Shown here one piece after another: positions 19,084-61,984 of a stretch of 64,000 nucleotides of DNA (the first letter of the stretch is position 1; each line of letters opens with the position of its first letter). Below the pieces are notes generated by a model. It made no database searches. It was not told where the DNA came from and saw only the letters and a list, made by a program, of their open reading frames with translations. Both the position numbers and the translations under genes were made by a program. The DNA comes from Pseudomonadota bacterium. Lineage in GTDB: Bacteria > Pseudomonadota > Alphaproteobacteria > SMXQ01. The stretch covers positions 7,572 to 71,571 of the forward strand of contig JADFJG010000003.1 of the NCBI GenBank assembly GCA_022566265.1, read 5' to 3'.

Positions 19084-19796
19084 GCGCCAAGGCCGAAAAG
19101 CCGGTCTGGACCGCCAGGGTCCTGACCCTGTTCCCGGAGATGTTCCCGGGGCCGCTCGACCATTCGATCGCCGGCAAGGCGCTGGAAGACGGCGTCTGGG
19201 CACTGGAGACGGTCGATTTGCGTGACTTTGCCGGTGACAAGCACCGCACGGTCGACGATGCCCCCTTCGGCGGCGGCCCGTCCATGGTGCTGCGCCCCGA
19301 CGTCGTCGACGCGGCGCTTCGGGCCACCAACGGGACTCGTGGGCCGATGATCTACCTCAGCCCCAAGGGCCGGCTGCTCGACCAGGCGAGGGTGCGCGAG
19401 ATCGCCCAGGCGCCCGCCGTCACCCTGCTATGCGGGCGCTATGAGGGTGTCGATGAACGGGTGATCGAGGCGCGGGGGCTCGAGGAAGTCAGCCTCGGCG
19501 ACTTCGTGCTGTCCGGCGGCGAGCCGGCGGCGATCGCGCTGATCGACGCCTGCGTCAGGCTGCTGCCCGGCGTCCTCGGCAACGCCCTGTCCCTGGTCGA
19601 GGAAAGCTTCGAGCGCGGCCTGCTCGAATACCCCCATTACACCCGGCCCCAGGACTGGCGGGGCCGGAAGGTGCCGGAAACGCTGCTTTCCGGTCATCAC
19701 GAGAAGATCCGCGCCTGGCGTCTCGCCGAAGCGGAGAAGATCACGCGTGAACGACGCCCGGATTTGTGGGCGCGCTATACCACCGGGAATCGTTAA
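19080..19796 (+). CDS. trmD: tRNA (guanine37-N1)-methyltransferase TrmD
   Basis: TrmD motifs ([24 protein letters not shown] and YEGVDERV). TTG start overlapping the rimM stop. Confidence 0.9.
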
Positions 19797-19834
19797 CCGC
19801 CCACCACGATGGGCCTCAATCGAAGGTAAGTGCC

Positions 19835-20452
19835 ATGAATATCATTGAACAGCTCGAAAACGAGCAGGTCGCCAAGCTGACGGCCGAACGCCCGGTGCCG
19901 AAATTCGGTCCCGGCGATACGGTGCGGGTCCTGGTCAAGGTTGTCGAAGGCAGCCGCGAGCGCGTCCAGACCTTCGAGGGCGTTTGCATCGCGCGCTCGA
20001 ACGACGGGCTGAACTCGTCGTTCACGGTGCGCAAGATATCCTATGGCGAAGGGGTGGAACGCGTCTTCCCGCTGTATTCACCGAACATCACCGAGATCCA
20101 GGTGGTGCGCCGGGGCGCGGTGCGCCGGGCGAAGCTCTACTATCTGCGCGGCCTGACCGGCAAGCGGGCCCGCATCGCCGAAAAGGTCGACCACCGCGTT
20201 ACCAGGCGCAAGGGCAAGGGCAAGGCGGCGGCCGCGAAATTGGCGAGCGAAACCGAAGAGGCGCAAACCGTCGCCGCCGACACCGCCGTGGCGCCGGCGC
20301 CCGATGCCAAGAAGGGTGGAGAGGACAAGGGTAAAAAGAAGCTCAAGCTCTGGGGCAGGAAGAAAGACAAAGCGAAAGCCAAGGGCGAAGACGGCGCGAA
20401 AACCCCGGACGAAGGCAAGGAAAAGAGTAAGGGCAAGGGCGAGAAGTCCTGA
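19835..20452 (+). CDS. rplS: 50S ribosomal protein L19 with ~80-aa Lys/Ala/Gly-rich C-terminal tail
   Basis: [22 protein letters not shown] and RVFPLYSP are canonical L19. The tail is [10 protein letters not shown]...[20 protein letters not shown]. Start at the internal ATG at 19835. Confidence 0.85.
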
Positions 20453-23667: not shown

Positions 23668-23837
23668 GGGGTTCGAACTCGAAGCGCCCAAACTCGGCCA
23701 ACAGCCCGCGGCGCTGGGCGTCGTTCCCGCGGCCGGTGGATCTAATACAACCCTGGGAGCAGCCCTTACAACCCCTGACACAAATTCCGCTACAACGCTT
23801 TAGGCCAGTATTGCCTTCCCTCATTTCGCTAAGATTG

Positions 23838-23843
23838 TATAAT
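23838..23843 (+). promoter_or_regulatory. Candidate -10 element (TATAAT preceded by TTG) for the low-GC two-gene cassette
   Basis: ATTGTATAATAT lies about 30 nt upstream of the ATG at 23874 inside an AT-rich leader. Confidence 0.3.
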
Positions 23844-23873
23844 ATCTCTGTCGTCTAAGAGATGGTGGAACCC

Positions 23874-24065
23874 ATGGCATCAAAGAAAGTCACGGCGAAG
23901 CGGACGAGGCGAAGAGCCTATGGAAGAGGAAAAAGAAAAGCTGCGGCTCGGGTAGTTTCTCCGGAGAAGGGTGCTGAATTGAAATACAGGGTCACTCAAC
24001 AGGCACCGCAGGCACCCAGCATTAGCCTAGACAAGATCAAAGAGGCGATACTCTCCACCACTTAG
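23874..24065 (+). CDS. Small highly basic hypothetical protein (63 aa) in low-GC cassette
   Basis: MASKKVTAKRTRRRAYGRGKRKAAARVV... uses AGA/AGG/AAA codons atypical for the host. A GGTGGA SD lies 6 nt upstream. The stop is 14 nt before the next gene. Confidence 0.4.
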   Translation: MASKKVTAKRTRRRAYGRGKRKAAARVVSPEKGAELKYRVTQQAPQAPSISLDKIKEAILSTT

Positions 24066-24079
24066 ACCCGGCGTAGGTT

Positions 24080-24709
24080 ATGGCTTCCGATGACTACGAG
24101 CTGAGTGTCTTCGTAAATTGTCCATTTGACCGGAAGTACAAATCGACCCTTTTCCCGGCGATCCTTTTTACGATCTACGATTGTGGTCTCAAGGCGCGTA
24201 GCGCCTTGGAGGCGGACACGGCTACTTCTGGCCGGCTGGAAAAAATCTTTGCAATCGTAAAGTCGAGTAAATACGGAATCCATGACATCTCACGGACAGG
24301 ATTAGATCGAGAAACCCGTTTACCACGCTTCAATATGCCCTTTGAGCTCGGTATATTTCTTGCCGCACAGAAATATGGGGCGGGTCGCCAGAAAGAGAAA
24401 ATTTGCTTGATTCTCGACAAGGAAGGTTATCGATACCATAAATTTATTTCCGACATTAAGGGCCTGGATATCAGCGCGCACTACAACAAGATTGATTCCG
24501 CCATCAGGCGGGTTCGTGACTGGCTCAACGATGACAAGCCACAAGGCGTCATGTTGCCAGGACATATACGGATATCGAACAGGTATGAGACGTTTCGAAG
24601 GCAACTGCCGCGGGCTGCCAAGAAGGCGGGCCTAGACCCGACCGACCTTCGATTCAATGATATCGCGAACTTTGTCAGTAAGTGGATTGAATTGAATCCA
24701 AAAGACTGA
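24080..24709 (+). CDS. TIR-like / nucleoside 2-deoxyribosyltransferase-like Rossmannoid domain protein (209 aa), putative nucleotide-targeting effector
   Basis: Low-GC ORF. Its N-terminal strand VFVNCPFD-(R)KY resembles TIR box 1 (FISY..D), a mid-section GLKARSALEAD...SGRLEKIFAIVKSSKYGIHDIS fits the TIR_2 core, and MPFELGIFLAAQKYG resembles the NDT catalytic GMELGYALSQGKY motif. The assignment rests on motif recall only. Confidence 0.5.
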   Translation: MASDDYELSVFVNCPFDRKYKSTLFPAILFTIYDCGLKARSALEADTATSGRLEKIFAIVKSSKYGIHDISRTGLDRETRLPRFNMPFELGIFLAAQKYGAGRQKEKICLILDKEGYRYHKFISDIKGLDISAHYNKIDSAIRRVRDWLNDDKPQGVMLPGHIRISNRYETFRRQLPRAAKKAGLDPTDLRFNDIANFVSKWIELNPKD

Positions 24710-24848
24710 ACCTCAAGGCTGCGTCCTTCACGGCGGGACGCGTGTGAGCATCTACGGCGCCCCTGTGCCGAGCATCATTGGCGTGGCGCCCTGTATCCGA
24801 CTAACCTGCTCCACCTTCGGCAAACATGTCGGATTTTCGAAACCGGCC

Positions 24849-25178
24849 CTAGTCGATCCCGTGCTTTTCGAGCTCTCGCCGGAGCCGGGCGGTGAGCAGG
24901 AGTGCGACCATGCGCAGATCGCTGATCAGCGAGAACCAGGGATGCTTGAAGGTCTCGGGCGTATTGTGCTCGACTAGAAGGTGGGAGAGCCAGGCGAAGC
25001 CGTAGCCGACGACAGGCGCCGCGGCGATAAGCCGCCAATCGGCGATGGTGGCGCCGGCGCCAAGCAGCGCCAGGCCGCCGATGGTGCCGATCGCGTGCAG
25101 GGCGCGGGTCAGCGGCCGTTTGTGCGCCCTGAGATAGTCGGGCCAGAAATCCGAGTAGGGCAGGGTCGGCGAGGGCAT
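24849..25178 (-). CDS. DUF962 (Mpo1-like) family membrane protein
   Basis: YLRAHKRPLTRALHAIGT ... HLLVEHNTPETFKHPWFSLISDLRM matches the DUF962 HxxxE-N-PA-F..P..S...D pattern. Two predicted TM helices. Confidence 0.55.
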   Translation of the reverse strand: MPSPTLPYSDFWPDYLRAHKRPLTRALHAIGTIGGLALLGAGATIADWRLIAAAPVVGYGFAWLSHLLVEHNTPETFKHPWFSLISDLRMVALLLTARLRRELEKHGID

Positions 25179-60386: not shown

Positions 60387-60504
60387 AGAACGATCTGTTT
60401 GGCGGCTCTTTCCTGCAACCACGTTTTTGCCTTTCCTATAAATGGCCTATCAAGCGCATCAGGCAATTCAATCAGACGATACGAGTCGCCGTTCTGACGG
60501 CGCG

Positions 60505-61386
60505 ATGCCCTATCAAATTCATCTCGGGGATGCATTCGCGTGGCTGTCCTCGGCAAGGAGTTGCTCGATCCATGCGGTCGTCACCGATCCACCATATGGC
60601 CTGATCGAATATTCCGACACCCAACTGAAGAAATTGAAGTCAGGGCGGGGAGGTGTTTGGAGGATTCCACCGAAATTTGATGGTTGTACACGGATGCCGC
60701 TGCCGCGATTTACCGTACTGTCGGCGGCTGATCACGAGGCGCTTCGATCGTTCTTTGCTGAATTTGCCAGATTGTTGAAACGTGTTTTGGTTCCTGGCGC
60801 CCACGTGTTTGTCGCGACCAATCCACTCGTGTCTTTTCTGGTCTATGAGCCCTTCATATCGGCTGGATTCGAGAAACGCGGGGATATCATCCGGGTCGTC
60901 CATACCTTGCGGGGGGGCGATCGGCCTAAAAATGCCCATGAAGAGTTTTCCGAAGTTTCAGTCATGCCGAAATCCTGTTGGGAGCCGTGGGCGCTGTTTC
61001 GAAAACCGTGCGAAGGACGTGTCCAAGATAACCTTCGTAAGTGGAAGACCGGCGGTTTGCGCCGCATTTCAAGTGACGAACCCTTCAAGGATTTGATTTA
61101 CTCCTCTCCGGCGAGAGGCATCGAAAGAAAAATTGCCTCTCACCCCTCGCTAAAACCGCAACAGTTTTTACGTCAGCTCGTCCAGGCGGCGCTGCCCCTG
61201 GGCGAAGGGGTCATACTCGATCCGTTCATGGGCTCGGGCTCGACGATAGCCGCTGCCTCCGCATGTGGCTTACGCAGTATCGGGATCGAAATGAATCCTG
61301 AATATTTCGAGTTGGCCGAGCAGGCGATCCCGGAACTGGCGCACTATTCACCGGAAGAACTCCGGGCCAATGGTACGAAAGGCTGA
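60505..61386 (+). CDS. Beta-class DNA N6-adenine methyltransferase (DPPY ... FxGSGST order)
   Basis: Motif IV DPPY near the N-terminus and motif I DPFMGSGSTIAAA near the C-terminus, CcrM/HinfI-like, with HPSLKPQQFL upstream of motif I. Low-GC island. Confidence 0.75.
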   Translation: MPYQIHLGDAFAWLSSARSCSIHAVVTDPPYGLIEYSDTQLKKLKSGRGGVWRIPPKFDGCTRMPLPRFTVLSAADHEALRSFFAEFARLLKRVLVPGAHVFVATNPLVSFLVYEPFISAGFEKRGDIIRVVHTLRGGDRPKNAHEEFSEVSVMPKSCWEPWALFRKPCEGRVQDNLRKWKTGGLRRISSDEPFKDLIYSSPARGIERKIASHPSLKPQQFLRQLVQAALPLGEGVILDPFMGSGSTIAAASACGLRSIGIEMNPEYFELAEQAIPELAHYSPEELRANGTKG

Positions 61387-61984
61387 CTTCGACCCTTCGG
61401 TGCCACTGCCACCCGGTCTCGACATTGCTTCGATTAGACGGGCCATAGATTACATCGAGCGAGAACTCGCCGATCTGATCGACGTCTATTTCGAGCAAGC
61501 TAATATCTTCAGCGCGCTGGTCGGCATATACGGGACCAAGGCGCTCGACTCGCTCAGCAATTATGAAAAGCATCGTCACATCGACACGGCACAGCAGCGT
61601 TTCCCCGACCTGCGCCGGAGAGGCTCCGGAAATCGCCCCAGTCCGAAAGAGTCCCTGGAAAGCAAGGCAAGTAAACGTCCGTGGGCTATTCAATCGCACT
61701 ACGATCATGCCGGGTGGTACATCGTTTGGCGCTATATGGTTGAGCCAACGGAATCCTTGGCATCTGGGCGGCCCGTCATAATCTGTCGCGTGGATGTCAT
61801 TTTCCTCCGTAAGTCAGACTGGAAATATGAAAGGAGCAGCGCCGGTCGAAAGGGCGGTGGCCGCACTCATACCTTTGGGGTAACGAATCCGGCCAAGAAG
61901 TTACGTGGCAAGGCTGTTTACCAGCGAAAAGATGTCGCGATACGCGACGGAAAATGGGTCCCCGTGAATGGCGGGGAAGGTTGA
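61370..61984 (+). CDS. Candidate Type II restriction endonuclease (PD-ExK-like) partner of the methyltransferase
   Basis: 204-aa low-GC ORF overlapping the methyltransferase stop by 17 bp. FPDL...ESLESK provides a PD-(x)n-ExK arrangement. No other homology recognised. Confidence 0.4.
   Translation: MVRKADFDPSVPLPPGLDIASIRRAIDYIERELADLIDVYFEQANIFSALVGIYGTKALDSLSNYEKHRHIDTAQQRFPDLRRRGSGNRPSPKESLESKASKRPWAIQSHYDHAGWYIVWRYMVEPTESLASGRPVIICRVDVIFLRKSDWKYERSSAGRKGGGRTHTFGVTNPAKKLRGKAVYQRKDVAIRDGKWVPVNGGEG

What the first reader, a model, noticed from the sequence alone, without database searches (positions are those of the whole stretch)
23690..24720. Low-GC two-gene cassette between leuB and asd: tiny basic protein plus TIR/NDT-like Rossmannoid effector, a candidate new minimal defence or toxin module
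A ~1 kb segment of markedly lower GC with AGA/AGG/AAA codon usage sits between two core biosynthetic genes (leuB, asd). It has its own strong -10 (TTGTATAAT). It encodes a 63-aa Lys/Arg-rich protein (23874-24065). Fourteen nucleotides downstream it encodes a 209-aa protein (24080-24709). The 209-aa N-terminal strand (SVFVNCPFDRKY), central GLKARSALEAD...SGRLEKIFAIVKSSKYGIHDIS and MPFELGIFLAAQKYG motifs resemble the TIR / nucleoside 2-deoxyribosyltransferase superfamily. In prokaryotes that superfamily supplies NAD+/nucleotide-cleaving effectors for Thoeris, CBASS and related antiphage systems. A ThsB-sized TIR-like protein paired only with a small basic partner, with no SIR2/SLOG ThsA, matches no described system I know of. 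The small partner could be an antitoxin, an inhibitor, or a nucleic-acid sensor.
Basis: partly seen in the sequence, partly recalled or inferred. Interest (0 to 1): 0.78.

Follow-up and report, generated by a model that had tools for sequence, protein, structure and literature searches.

The report
TIR-like enzyme with small basic partner
A 1-kb horizontally acquired cassette encodes an uncharacterised, very widespread TIR-fold protein and a tiny basic partner that carries a conserved 29-residue motif; together they look like a new two-gene conflict (defence or toxin-type) module, but its function has not been tested.

Summary
Positions 23690-24800 are the lowest-GC kilobase of the window (0.50 against a median of 0.65; GC3 0.53-0.56 against 0.86-0.91). 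They carry a 63-aa K/R-rich ORF and, 14 nt downstream, a 209-aa ORF.

The small ORF is real. A 29-aa motif occurs in 55 of 81 loci, always on the same strand, and next to the gene in 56 of 58 hits. The window's copy reaches this family through closer relatives (BLASTP E = 1e-7).

In Poribacteria the motif heads larger downstream partners: CBASS-type cyclases, DUF2188, a GIY-YIG-like domain and TPR proteins.

Neighbouring genes are mostly housekeeping, so a defence role is inferred, not shown. I rate it a new variant of TIR-based conflict modules, probably a toxin/effector regulated by a docking partner.

The parts
23690..24800 (.). Low-GC island: horizontally acquired cassette inserted between leuB and an Mpo1-like gene/asd.
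   Evidence: GC is 0.46-0.52 in 300-nt windows against about 0.65 in the flanks. It is the lowest-GC kilobase of the window, and GC3 is 0.53-0.56 against 0.86-0.91. No flanking target-site duplication, tRNA or integrase was found.
23836..23843 (+). TG + TATAAT, a candidate -10 element for the two-gene operon.
   Evidence: Read directly from the sequence. TGTATAAT and the surrounding 60 nt are conserved in L001. No consensus -35 was found and the formal promoter scan makes no call.
23874..24065 (+). Small basic partner gene: 63 aa, 17 K+R, with a GGTGGA Shine-Dalgarno-like site upstream. An alternative in-frame ATG lies at 23862.
   Evidence: ORF listed. It is homologous to the ORFs directly upstream of the closest relatives of the 209-aa gene (L083, L082, L081; BLASTP E = 1e-7, 9e-6, 5e-6). 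It is 88% identical in L001.
23979..24062 (+). C-terminal docking motif of the partner (LKYRVTQQAPQAPSISLDKIKEAILSTT), a diverged copy of the family motif R-[TI]-[IV]-K-x2-PK-x-G-x-[VL]-[ST]-R-x2-I-x2-AV-x2-V.
   Evidence: The motif HMM hits 58 sites in 55 of 81 sources, all on the same strand as the TIR-like gene and 56 of them adjacent to it. The bridging ORFs in L081-L083 hit the HMM independently (E = 2e-6 to 3e-3). The window copy itself scores no better than shuffled sequences against the HMM. These 29 codons are identical in L001, while codons 1-38 carry 8 nonsynonymous changes.
24080..24709 (+). 209-aa TIR-like (PF10137-related) Rossmannoid protein, the predicted N-glycosidase effector.
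24344..24346 (+). Codon of Glu89 (FNMPF-E-LG), the candidate catalytic glutamate at the N-terminus of helix 3, after strand 3.
   Evidence: E89 is conserved in at least 90% of 40 diverse homologues, and N85, M86, P87, L90 and G91 are invariant. Its position after beta3 (65-69) at the start of helix 88-99 comes from the model. Equivalence to the TIR/NDT catalytic Glu is inferred from topology, not from a residue-level superposition.
24485..24706 (+). C-terminal helical region of the 209-aa protein (residues ~136-209; helices 138-151, 162-182, 192-205). Function unknown; possibly the partner-binding or oligomerisation surface.

Best explanation
The cassette is a mobile two-gene conflict module, either toxin/antitoxin-like or abortive-infection-type.

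The 209-aa protein is a divergent TIR-fold enzyme related to the Cap12/Pycsar NADase TIR family (PF10137). When active it most likely cleaves the N-glycosidic bond of NAD+ or of a nucleotide, using Glu89.

The 63-aa protein is its cognate partner. Its C-terminal 29-residue motif (a short strand followed by an amphipathic basic helix) docks onto the enzyme. Its Lys/Arg-rich N-terminal tail probably binds nucleic acid. The two genes are co-transcribed and translationally coupled.

The partner keeps the enzyme inactive or tethered. Loss, displacement or titration of the partner, for example during phage infection or after loss of the element, would let the enzyme oligomerise and deplete NAD+ or nucleotides.

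What is shown: the fold class, the conserved Glu, the size and spread of the family, the obligate adjacency and same-strand arrangement of the motif-bearing partner, the modularity of the motif, and horizontal acquisition.

What is inferred: catalysis and substrate, physical binding, the direction of regulation, and the biological role.
For: Fold and family:
- Foldseek on PDB gives SPARTA TIR-APAZ and SfSTING TIR. The BFVD top hit is annotated Cap12/Pycsar TIR.
- PF10137 is the only recurrent Pfam match, in 29 of 40 members.
- PF10137-type TIRs are NADases activated by oligomerisation (PMC11224242).
- There are 34 invariant columns, including H68, D69, R83, N85, L90 and G91, with E89 conserved in at least 90% of sequences, across phyla at about 50% identity.

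Partner:
- The motif HMM gives 58 hits in 1.5 million residues of six-frame translation. All are on the same strand; 43 lie just upstream, 13 just downstream and only 2 elsewhere.
- Upstream partners have a median length of 65 aa and a median stop-to-start gap of 3 nt. Eleven overlap the gene, and the median net charge is +12.
- Reverse check: three motif proteins found independently were looked up; two of them (three contigs, L095, L096 and L097) lie 29 nt downstream of a 207-aa gene, and BLASTP confirms the L095 one as a family member.
- The window ORF is homologous to motif-bearing partners.

Conflict-system flavour:
- The motif is fused to CBASS cyclases (PADLOC E = 5e-125), DUF2188, a GIY-YIG-like domain and TPR.
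- The 209-aa domain is fused to canonical TIR_2 in five representative proteins.
- Copies occur on 17 plasmids, one as cargo of a TniABQ transposon.
- Some loci sit beside Eco57I-type R-M, AbiJ, HigB/HTH_37 or RES-Xre genes.
- Composition indicates horizontal acquisition.
Against: - There are no biochemical or genetic data.
- PF10137 similarity is below the gathering score (12.5 against 24.7 bits).
- There is no detectable sequence relation to canonical TIR_2 or to any PDB sequence.
- The equivalence of Glu89 to the catalytic Glu is topological only.
- Immediate neighbours in 37 loci are mostly unrelated housekeeping genes, and no family recurs in more than 3 of 138 ORFs. Only a handful hit PADLOC, so no enrichment in defence islands is seen.
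- About 50% identity across phyla is unusually conservative for an immune effector.
- The family is nearly absent from phages (0 GenBank phage records; 11 IMG/VR contigs).
- An AF2 model of a natural partner-enzyme fusion gave no confident docking.
- One motif protein (L098) sits next to an unrelated 542-aa protein.
Confidence: 0.45

Rival explanations
1. Signalling system of the Thoeris/CBASS type. The TIR-like protein makes, or senses, a nucleotide-derived signal. The motif-bearing partner is the effector or the signal source, and in the minimal form it acts as a basic nucleic-acid-binding effector.
Against: In the window and in most loci the partner is only 45-90 aa, with no enzymatic or membrane domain that could act as an effector. 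No recognised sensor domain (SAVED, STING, CNBD, SLOG, Macro) is found in the 209-aa protein. No PADLOC ThsB/ThsA or cyclase model hits the window genes. A motif conserved across all partner types fits protein docking better than a diffusible signal.
Confidence: 0.2
2. Non-conflict housekeeping or accessory enzyme. The protein is a nucleotide or nucleoside N-glycosidase of the NDT/Rcl/LOG kind, for example for salvage or removal of modified nucleotides. It is paired with a small nucleoid-associated or regulatory protein.
Against: Distribution is patchy, copies lie on plasmids and transposons, and several genomes hold more than one copy. Composition in the window is foreign. There is no conserved metabolic neighbourhood. 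Fusions are to canonical TIR_2, and the partner motif is fused to CBASS cyclase, a GIY-YIG-like domain and TPR. NDT Pfam models give no hit.
Confidence: 0.15
3. The motif is a substrate tag rather than an inhibitor. The TIR-like enzyme covalently modifies the partner, for example by ADP-ribosylating the nearly invariant Arg or the Ser/Thr-Arg of the motif, and so switches the attached payload on or off.
For: The motif has a nearly invariant Arg and Ala. It sits at the extreme N- or C-terminus of very different payload proteins. That resembles terminal tags handled by ancillary enzymes such as Cap2/Cap3 in type II CBASS (my own knowledge).
Against: I know of no TIR or NDT-fold enzyme that modifies proteins, and I have no direct evidence here. 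In the window copy the [ST]-R dipeptide of the motif reads S-L.
Confidence: 0.07
4. The small ORF is a chance ORF or only a leader sequence, and the 209-aa protein acts alone.
For: The window's small ORF scores no better than shuffled sequences against the motif HMM. Between the window and L001 its first 38 codons show 8 nonsynonymous against 2 synonymous changes.
Against: The motif is conserved at the amino-acid level across at least 12 phyla, and only next to the gene and on the same strand. BLASTP links the window ORF to canonical partners. Gene callers and RefSeq annotate such ORFs, for example WP_225883565.1. The C-terminal 29 codons are identical in L001.
Confidence: 0.03

Closest known systems
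PF10137 TIR domains of CBASS Cap12 (TIR-STING) and Pycsar PycTIR
   Same: This is the closest sequence family: 29 of 40 homologues match it weakly and the best BFVD structural hit is annotated with it. It shares the beta3-loop-'xFELGxF' helix signature and the TIR-class fold. In one branch (L008, L026) the gene sits next to a CBASS cyclase.
   Different: The match is below the Pfam threshold. There is no fused STING, SAVED or CNBD sensor; a roughly 70-aa helical C-terminal region of unknown function takes that place. The usual partner is a 45-90-aa basic protein with a private motif, not a cyclase.
Thoeris (ThsB TIR plus a ThsA-type effector), including the expanded types V-XI
   Same: A stand-alone TIR-fold protein of ThsB size in a two-gene operon. 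DUF2188, one of the domains fused to the partner motif, has been listed as a putative Thoeris effector.
   Different: No PADLOC ThsB model matches. No effector with a sensor domain is adjacent. The partner is defined by a docking-type motif, not by a ligand-binding domain. There is no sequence similarity to canonical TIR_2.
Nucleoside 2-deoxyribosyltransferase / MilB / Rcl (DNPH1) / LOG nucleotide N-glycosidases
   Different: No Pfam NDT model hits. The protein has an extra C-terminal helical region and an obligate small partner, and its genomic behaviour is mobile and patchy.
Type II toxin-antitoxin modules
   Same: A compact bicistronic cassette with a small, charged, fast-evolving first gene and tight or overlapping stop/start codons. 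It is inserted among housekeeping genes, occurs on plasmids and transposons, can be multi-copy, and often neighbours other TA pairs.
   Different: Neither gene matches a known toxin or antitoxin family. In one lineage the gene order is reversed. The 'antitoxin' motif is also fused to large enzymes (CD-NTase, a GIY-YIG-like domain) and to TPR proteins, which classical antitoxins are not.
Evangelion (single-gene DUF4062/TIR-like defence; bioRxiv 10.64898/2026.06.25.731849)
   Same: A divergent TIR-like core, proposed there to deplete NAD+, coupled to a variable auxiliary part needed for function.
   Different: A different family (no PF13271 hit). The auxiliary part is here a separate gene product recognised through a conserved motif, and the module is not mainly plasmid-borne in Firmicutes.

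Membership tests
TIR/NDT/SLOG Rossmannoid fold class | Three-layer alpha/beta fold with a parallel sheet that can be superposed on TIR or NDT domains. | tested here: met
PF10137 (CAP12/Pycsar TIR) | Score at or above the Pfam gathering threshold (24.7 bits). | tested here: not met
   The window protein scores 12.5 bits, E = 0.15. Of 40 homologues, 29 match weakly, best E = 3.4e-4. This is consistent sub-threshold similarity: a related but distinct family.
Catalytic TIR/NDT enzymes | Conserved catalytic Glu at the start of the helix that follows strand 3 (alphaC in TIR; the 'FExG' motif in NDT). | tested here: inconclusive
   E89 is conserved in at least 90% of sequences within the invariant FNMPxELG block and lies at the N-terminus of helix 88-99, after strand 65-69. 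No residue-level superposition or activity assay was possible.
Canonical TIR (PF13676 TIR_2, PF01582, PF08937 ThsB-type) | Sequence-profile match. | tested here: not met
   hmmscan gives no hit at E <= 1. hhalign of the family profile against TIR_2 domains gives probability 0.5%. No PADLOC ThsB hit.
Nucleoside 2-deoxyribosyltransferase (PF05014, PF15891) | Sequence-profile match. | tested here: not met
   No Pfam hit at E <= 1, either for the window protein or among the 13 families matched by any of 40 homologues.
Thoeris | A ThsB TIR gene adjacent to an effector with a signal-sensing domain (SIR2-SLOG, Macro-TM and others). | tested here: not met
   The only adjacent gene is the 63-aa basic ORF. 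The flanks are leuB, an Mpo1-like gene and asd. There are no PADLOC hits.
CBASS / Pycsar | A CD-NTase or pyrimidine cyclase gene in the operon. | tested here: not met
   There is none in the window. The feature is met only in the relatives L008 and L026, whose motif-bearing partner is a CBASS cyclase (PADLOC E = 5e-125).
Type II toxin-antitoxin | Compact bicistronic operon with a small first gene and tight coupling. | tested here: met
   The gap is 14 nt in the window. Over 43 upstream partners the median gap is 3 nt and 11 overlap the gene.
Type II toxin-antitoxin | Toxicity of one product that is neutralised by direct binding of the other. | not testable with these tools
   This needs expression and interaction experiments. 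AF2 of the natural fusion P0140 gave pLDDT 46-65 for the partner part.
Anti-phage defence system (generic) | Enrichment next to known defence genes (defence islands). | tested here: inconclusive
   The 138 neighbour ORFs from 37 loci are mostly diverse housekeeping genes. A few hit PADLOC: ThsB, PDC-M50A/B, PDC-S01 and the two cyclases. R-M, AbiJ or TA genes lie beside some loci. No genome-wide background was computed.
Evangelion / DUF4062 | PF13271 (DUF4062) core. | tested here: not met
   No such Pfam hit for the window protein or its homologues.

The most novel reading that the evidence does not exclude
The 29-residue basic motif is a portable, heterotypic docking tag. It recruits interchangeable payloads to one conserved TIR-like hub protein. 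The payloads seen are plain nucleic-acid-binding tails, DUF2188, a GIY-YIG-like domain, TPR sensors, a ParA-like ATPase and even CBASS cyclases.

This would be a previously unrecognised adaptor-based architecture of prokaryotic immunity. It would include a CBASS variant in which the cyclase is physically tethered to its TIR effector. The window holds the minimal form.
Probability: 0.3. Interest if true: 0.8.

Novelty: new variant of a known kind. Interest (0 to 1): 0.62.

Why it matters
TIR-fold enzymes are central to immunity in bacteria, plants and animals. This family is large (about 3,450 clusters at 50% identity, at least 12 phyla, chromosomes and plasmids), yet it is absent from Pfam, NCBIfam, PADLOC and PHROGs.

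If the pair works as proposed, it would add a very compact TIR-based module of about 850 bp. It would also add a new regulatory principle: control of a TIR enzyme by a short docking motif that evolution has moved onto CD-NTases, a nuclease-like (GIY-YIG-type) domain and repeat sensors.

The idea can be tested directly in cultured strains that carry the pair: Sphingomonas aliaeris DH-S5 plasmid, Bradyrhizobium sp. 187, Microvirga ossetica, Geomonas silvestris, Duganella aquatilis and Microbulbifer sp. HZ11.

Tried and rejected
- **BLAST clustering of neighbour ORFs of at least 60 aa** found no conserved partner. The partner showed up only when I looked at ORF position and composition and built a motif HMM.
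- **Window small ORF against the motif HMM:** no better than shuffled sequences. Membership therefore rests on the bridging homologues.
- **Sequence searches of the PDB**, with the single sequence and with the profile: nothing relevant.
- **The afdb50 fold library** was not available.
- **hhalign against canonical TIR_2:** no relation.
- **My impression that the K/R-rich linkers of TIR_2 fusions contain the motif** was not supported by the HMM. I dropped it.
- **AF2 of the natural partner-enzyme fusion P0140:** the core is confident, but the partner part has low confidence, so it gives no docking model.
- **Mobile-element signatures:** Rfam, tRNA, terminator and repeat scans of the cassette gave no RNA element, no tRNA and no target-site duplication or terminal inverted repeats.
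- **Phage origin:** no PHROG hit, no hit in GenBank phages and only 11 IMG/VR contigs.
- **Burroughs & Aravind 2020**, which is cited for linking DUF2188 to defence, could not be read because the library does not hold it.
- **The small-motif profile against 5.8 billion proteins** gave only 46 significant hits, because the motif is so short. The size of the partner family is therefore underestimated.
Full report
**1. The observation**

- A 63-aa ORF runs 23874-24065. An in-frame ATG at 23862 would give 67 aa. It is rich in Lys and Arg.
- Fourteen nucleotides after its stop, a 209-aa ORF runs 24080-24709.

The segment is compositionally foreign.
- 300-nt windows fall to 0.46-0.52 GC against about 0.65 on either side.
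- It is the lowest-GC kilobase of the whole 64-kb window: 0.50 against a median of 0.65.
- GC3 is 0.53 and 0.56 in the two ORFs, against 0.86-0.91 in leuB, asd and leuC.

The flanks are leuB (PF00180, E = 4e-134) and asd (PF02774/PF01118).

Three corrections:
- An Mpo1-like/DUF962 gene on the minus strand (24849-25178, PF06127) lies between the cassette and asd.
- The -10 element is real, with TATAAT at 23838-23843 preceded by TG. No suitable -35 exists and the formal scan calls no promoter.
- The AGA/AGG bias is clear only in the small ORF.

A MAG contig (L001, 'Proteobacteria bacterium B21D1T1') is collinear with the window at about 93% identity and carries the same cassette.

No tRNA, target-site duplication, terminal repeat or Rfam element marks the insertion.

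**2. The 209-aa protein**

It has no significant hit in Pfam, NCBIfam, PADLOC or PHROGs, and none against PDB sequences.

It nevertheless belongs to a large family.
- 4,137 proteins in the 90%-clustered collection, all about 205-215 aa, all without Pfam domains, all 'hypothetical'.
- 3,456 clusters at 50% identity with E <= 1e-3 in the exhaustive search.
- At least 587 loci in GTDB species genomes. These cover Acidobacteriota, Poribacteria, Planctomycetota, Verrucomicrobiota, several proteobacterial classes, Cyanobacteria, Nitrospirae, Gemmatimonadetes, Bacteroidota, Chloroflexi, Actinobacteria and Clostridia.

Members from different phyla keep about 50% identity. There are 34 invariant columns, among them VFxNCPF, DCG, GxHD and LPRFNMPxELG; E89 is conserved in at least 90% of sequences.

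An AlphaFold2 model built on 40 sequences is confident (pLDDT 85.8, pTM 0.86). A second model of a relative reproduced the core.

Structural comparisons:
- Foldseek gives SPARTA TIR-APAZ and SfSTING TIR.
- Among viral models the best hit is a protein annotated as Cap12/Pycsar TIR (E = 3.9e-4), followed by NDTs.

At the sequence level the only recurrent Pfam match is PF10137, the Cap12/Pycsar TIR family. It is hit weakly by 29 of 40 members (best E = 3.4e-4), always below the gathering score. Canonical TIR_2 shows no profile-profile similarity.

The protein is a distinct, undescribed family.

Glu89 sits at the start of helix 3, after strand 3 and a 17-residue loop. That is the topological position of the catalytic Glu of TIR and NDT enzymes. 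The equivalence is an inference; no residue-level superposition was available.

Residues 136-209 form three further helices that none of the matched TIR/NDT domains aligns with convincingly.

**3. The small ORF**

BLAST clustering of neighbouring ORFs found no conserved partner.

However, in 65 of 80 loci an ORF of at least 30 aa (typically 50-90 aa and K/R-rich) ends within 40 nt of the gene start on the same strand. Many of these ORFs share a motif, roughly R-[TI]-[IV]-K-x2-PK-x-G-x-[VL]-[ST]-R-x2-I-x2-AV-x2-V.

I built an HMM of this 29-residue motif and searched it against every stop-to-stop segment in all six frames of the 80 loci and the window (1.5 million residues).
- It gave 58 hits at E < 0.01, in 55 sources.
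- All hits are on the strand of the TIR-like gene.
- 43 lie immediately upstream, 13 immediately downstream, and only 2 more than 400 nt away.

Upstream partners have a median length of 65 aa, a median stop-to-start gap of 3 nt and a median net charge of +12. Eleven overlap the gene.

The window's own ORF does not score above shuffled sequences against the HMM. It is, however, homologous to the ORFs directly upstream of its three closest retrievable relatives.
- L083: LKYAPIRKAPKVGTVSREKIREAILSTM, against the window's LKYRVTQQAPQAPSISLDKIKEAILSTT.
- BLASTP E = 1e-7 (L083), 9e-6 (L082) and 5e-6 (L081).
- Those three ORFs hit the motif HMM independently.

Between the window and L001 the last 29 codons are identical. 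The K/R-rich first 38 codons carry 8 nonsynonymous and 2 synonymous changes. The large gene shows 30 synonymous and 14 nonsynonymous changes.

A profile search of 5.8 billion proteins found 46 small proteins (43-85 aa), all unnamed. I looked up three of them. Two (three contigs, L095, L096 and L097) lie 29 nt downstream of a 207-aa gene; BLASTP confirmed the L095 one as a family member at 48% identity, and tblastn gave the same match in L096 and L097. The third (L098) lies next to an unrelated 542-aa protein in an R-M-like region.

The small ORF is therefore a genuine, conserved, co-located partner.

**4. The motif is modular**

In Poribacteria the gene order is reversed, and the motif forms the N-terminus of the downstream protein. 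The rest of that protein varies:
- nothing further;
- an 'RDAKTGRFI' peptide;
- DUF2188 (E = 4e-18);
- a GIY-YIG-like domain (weak match);
- a 650-aa TPR protein;
- an unknown domain of 400-600 aa;
- in L008 and L026, a bona fide CBASS oligonucleotide cyclase (PADLOC PDLC00770, E = 5e-125; Pfam PF21654 above threshold).

In Synechococcus (L075) the motif ends a ParA/MinD-like ATPase. DUF2188 proteins also occupy the upstream slot in L010, L023, L031 and L077.

The 209-aa domain has fusions of its own.
- It is found fused behind canonical TIR_2 domains in five representative proteins (E = 1e-12 to 1e-20).
- It is found fused in front of a recurrent, unannotated domain of about 100 aa.

A short conserved element that always accompanies one protein while its own payload varies is best read as a docking or adaptor element, rather than as a classical antitoxin.

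**5. Context**

Pfam and PADLOC scans of 138 neighbouring ORFs from 37 loci show mostly unrelated housekeeping genes. No family recurs more than three times, and only scattered defence hits appear.

Some loci sit next to Eco57I-type R-M, AbiJ, DUF433, HigB/HTH_37 or RES-Xre genes.

Seventeen plasmids of cultured Bradyrhizobium, Sphingomonas, Rhizobium, Microvirga and Sinorhizobium carry the gene, annotated 'hypothetical protein' wherever a feature is listed. In the Sphingomonas aliaeris plasmid the pair (56 aa plus 211 aa, 1-nt gap) is cargo of a TniA/TniB/TniQ transposon.

No GenBank phage has the gene, and only 11 IMG/VR contigs do.

This behaviour (small, self-contained, horizontally moving, dropped into arbitrary sites) resembles toxin-antitoxin cassettes more than components of defence islands.

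**6. Mechanism**

PF10137-type TIRs are NADases switched on by ligand-induced oligomerisation (PMC11224242).

My preferred model (confidence about 0.45) has four parts:
- The 209-aa protein is an N-glycosidase acting on NAD+ or a nucleotide through Glu89.
- The partner's motif binds the enzyme.
- The K/R tail binds nucleic acid.
- The partner restrains or tethers the enzyme until it is lost or displaced. The enzyme then depletes its substrate, which would give abortive infection or post-segregational killing.

Rival explanations:
- A Thoeris/CBASS-like signalling arrangement (0.2). It is supported by the cyclase-fused partners and by DUF2188 being listed as a putative Thoeris effector (10.64898/2025.12.03.692087).
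- An ordinary nucleotide-metabolism enzyme with a small regulator (0.15).
- Covalent modification of the motif by the enzyme (0.07).
- A non-functional small ORF (0.03, essentially refuted).

Every step beyond fold, conservation and genomic linkage is an inference.

**7. Comparison and novelty**

The module works most like a TIR-effector system. It fails the membership tests for Thoeris, CBASS, Pycsar, canonical TIR, NDT and DUF4062/Evangelion. It meets only the architectural criterion of a type II TA.

The libraries and papers I could search contain no description of either family or of their pairing. DUF2188 alone has been linked to defence before.

I rate it a new variant of a known kind (TIR-based conflict modules), with interest of about 0.6. 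The family is large and unannotated, the partner motif is a new and testable regulatory element, and cultured carriers exist. Against that, the function is unproven and the genomic context does not by itself argue for immunity.

Noticed in passing
window 60442-61984: A second low-GC island (below 0.55 GC in 1-kb windows). It holds a 314-aa N4/N6 DNA methyltransferase (PF01555, E = 3e-20; DPPYGL motif) that overlaps a 204-aa ORF with no Pfam hit. This is probably a horizontally acquired type II restriction-modification pair.
   Followed up: partly
window 24849-25178 (minus strand): An Mpo1-like/DUF962 gene (PF06127, E = 3e-27) sits between the cassette and asd, so the cassette is not directly adjacent to asd.
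   Followed up: yes
L001 6001-7029: In the 93%-identical MAG copy the stop codon of the 209-aa gene is changed (TGA to CGA). That gives a read-through ORF of about 340 aa. It could be a sequencing error or a real C-terminal extension.
   Followed up: no
L027, L053, L065, L096, L098; also L006, L007, L030, L036, L100: A second short conserved peptide, '(Y)RDAKTG[RK]F[IV]...AE(R)RK.TAVVETI', recurs in partner proteins, either after or in place of the first motif. It has no Pfam family.
   Followed up: no
L095 1803-2048 and 2983-3129; L098 3001-3258 and 4055-4318: In Poribacteria the motif-bearing small genes are multiplied within one region and sit beside HigB-like (Gp49) / HTH_37 pairs. In L098 two motif genes occur with no TIR-like gene within 3 kb, next to an R-M-like cluster and a 542-aa protein that may have a PD-(D/E)xK-like motif.
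   Followed up: partly
P0129, P0151, P0153, P0170, P0185, P0190 (C-terminal ~100 aa): A recurrent, unannotated C-terminal domain ('...FVIL...YxQ...LEYQEG..D.HY...W') is fused to the 209-aa domain in several representative proteins. It has no Pfam hit.
   Followed up: partly
P0141, P0159, P0209, P0238, P0263: These proteins have a canonical TIR_2 (one also SEFIR-like) domain fused N-terminally to the 209-aa domain through a K/R-rich linker. They therefore hold two different TIR-class domains in one protein.
   Followed up: partly
window 19766-20452: The ribosomal protein L19-like ORF carries a long C-terminal extension rich in Lys, Glu, Ala and Gly, about 100 aa long.
   Followed up: no
L100 (Sphingomonas aliaeris plasmid NZ_CP061036.1) 1-4606: The pair lies in the cargo region of a TniA (Mu-type transposase)/TniB/TniQ transposon, directly after an HU-family DNA-binding protein gene and a serine protease gene.
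   Followed up: no
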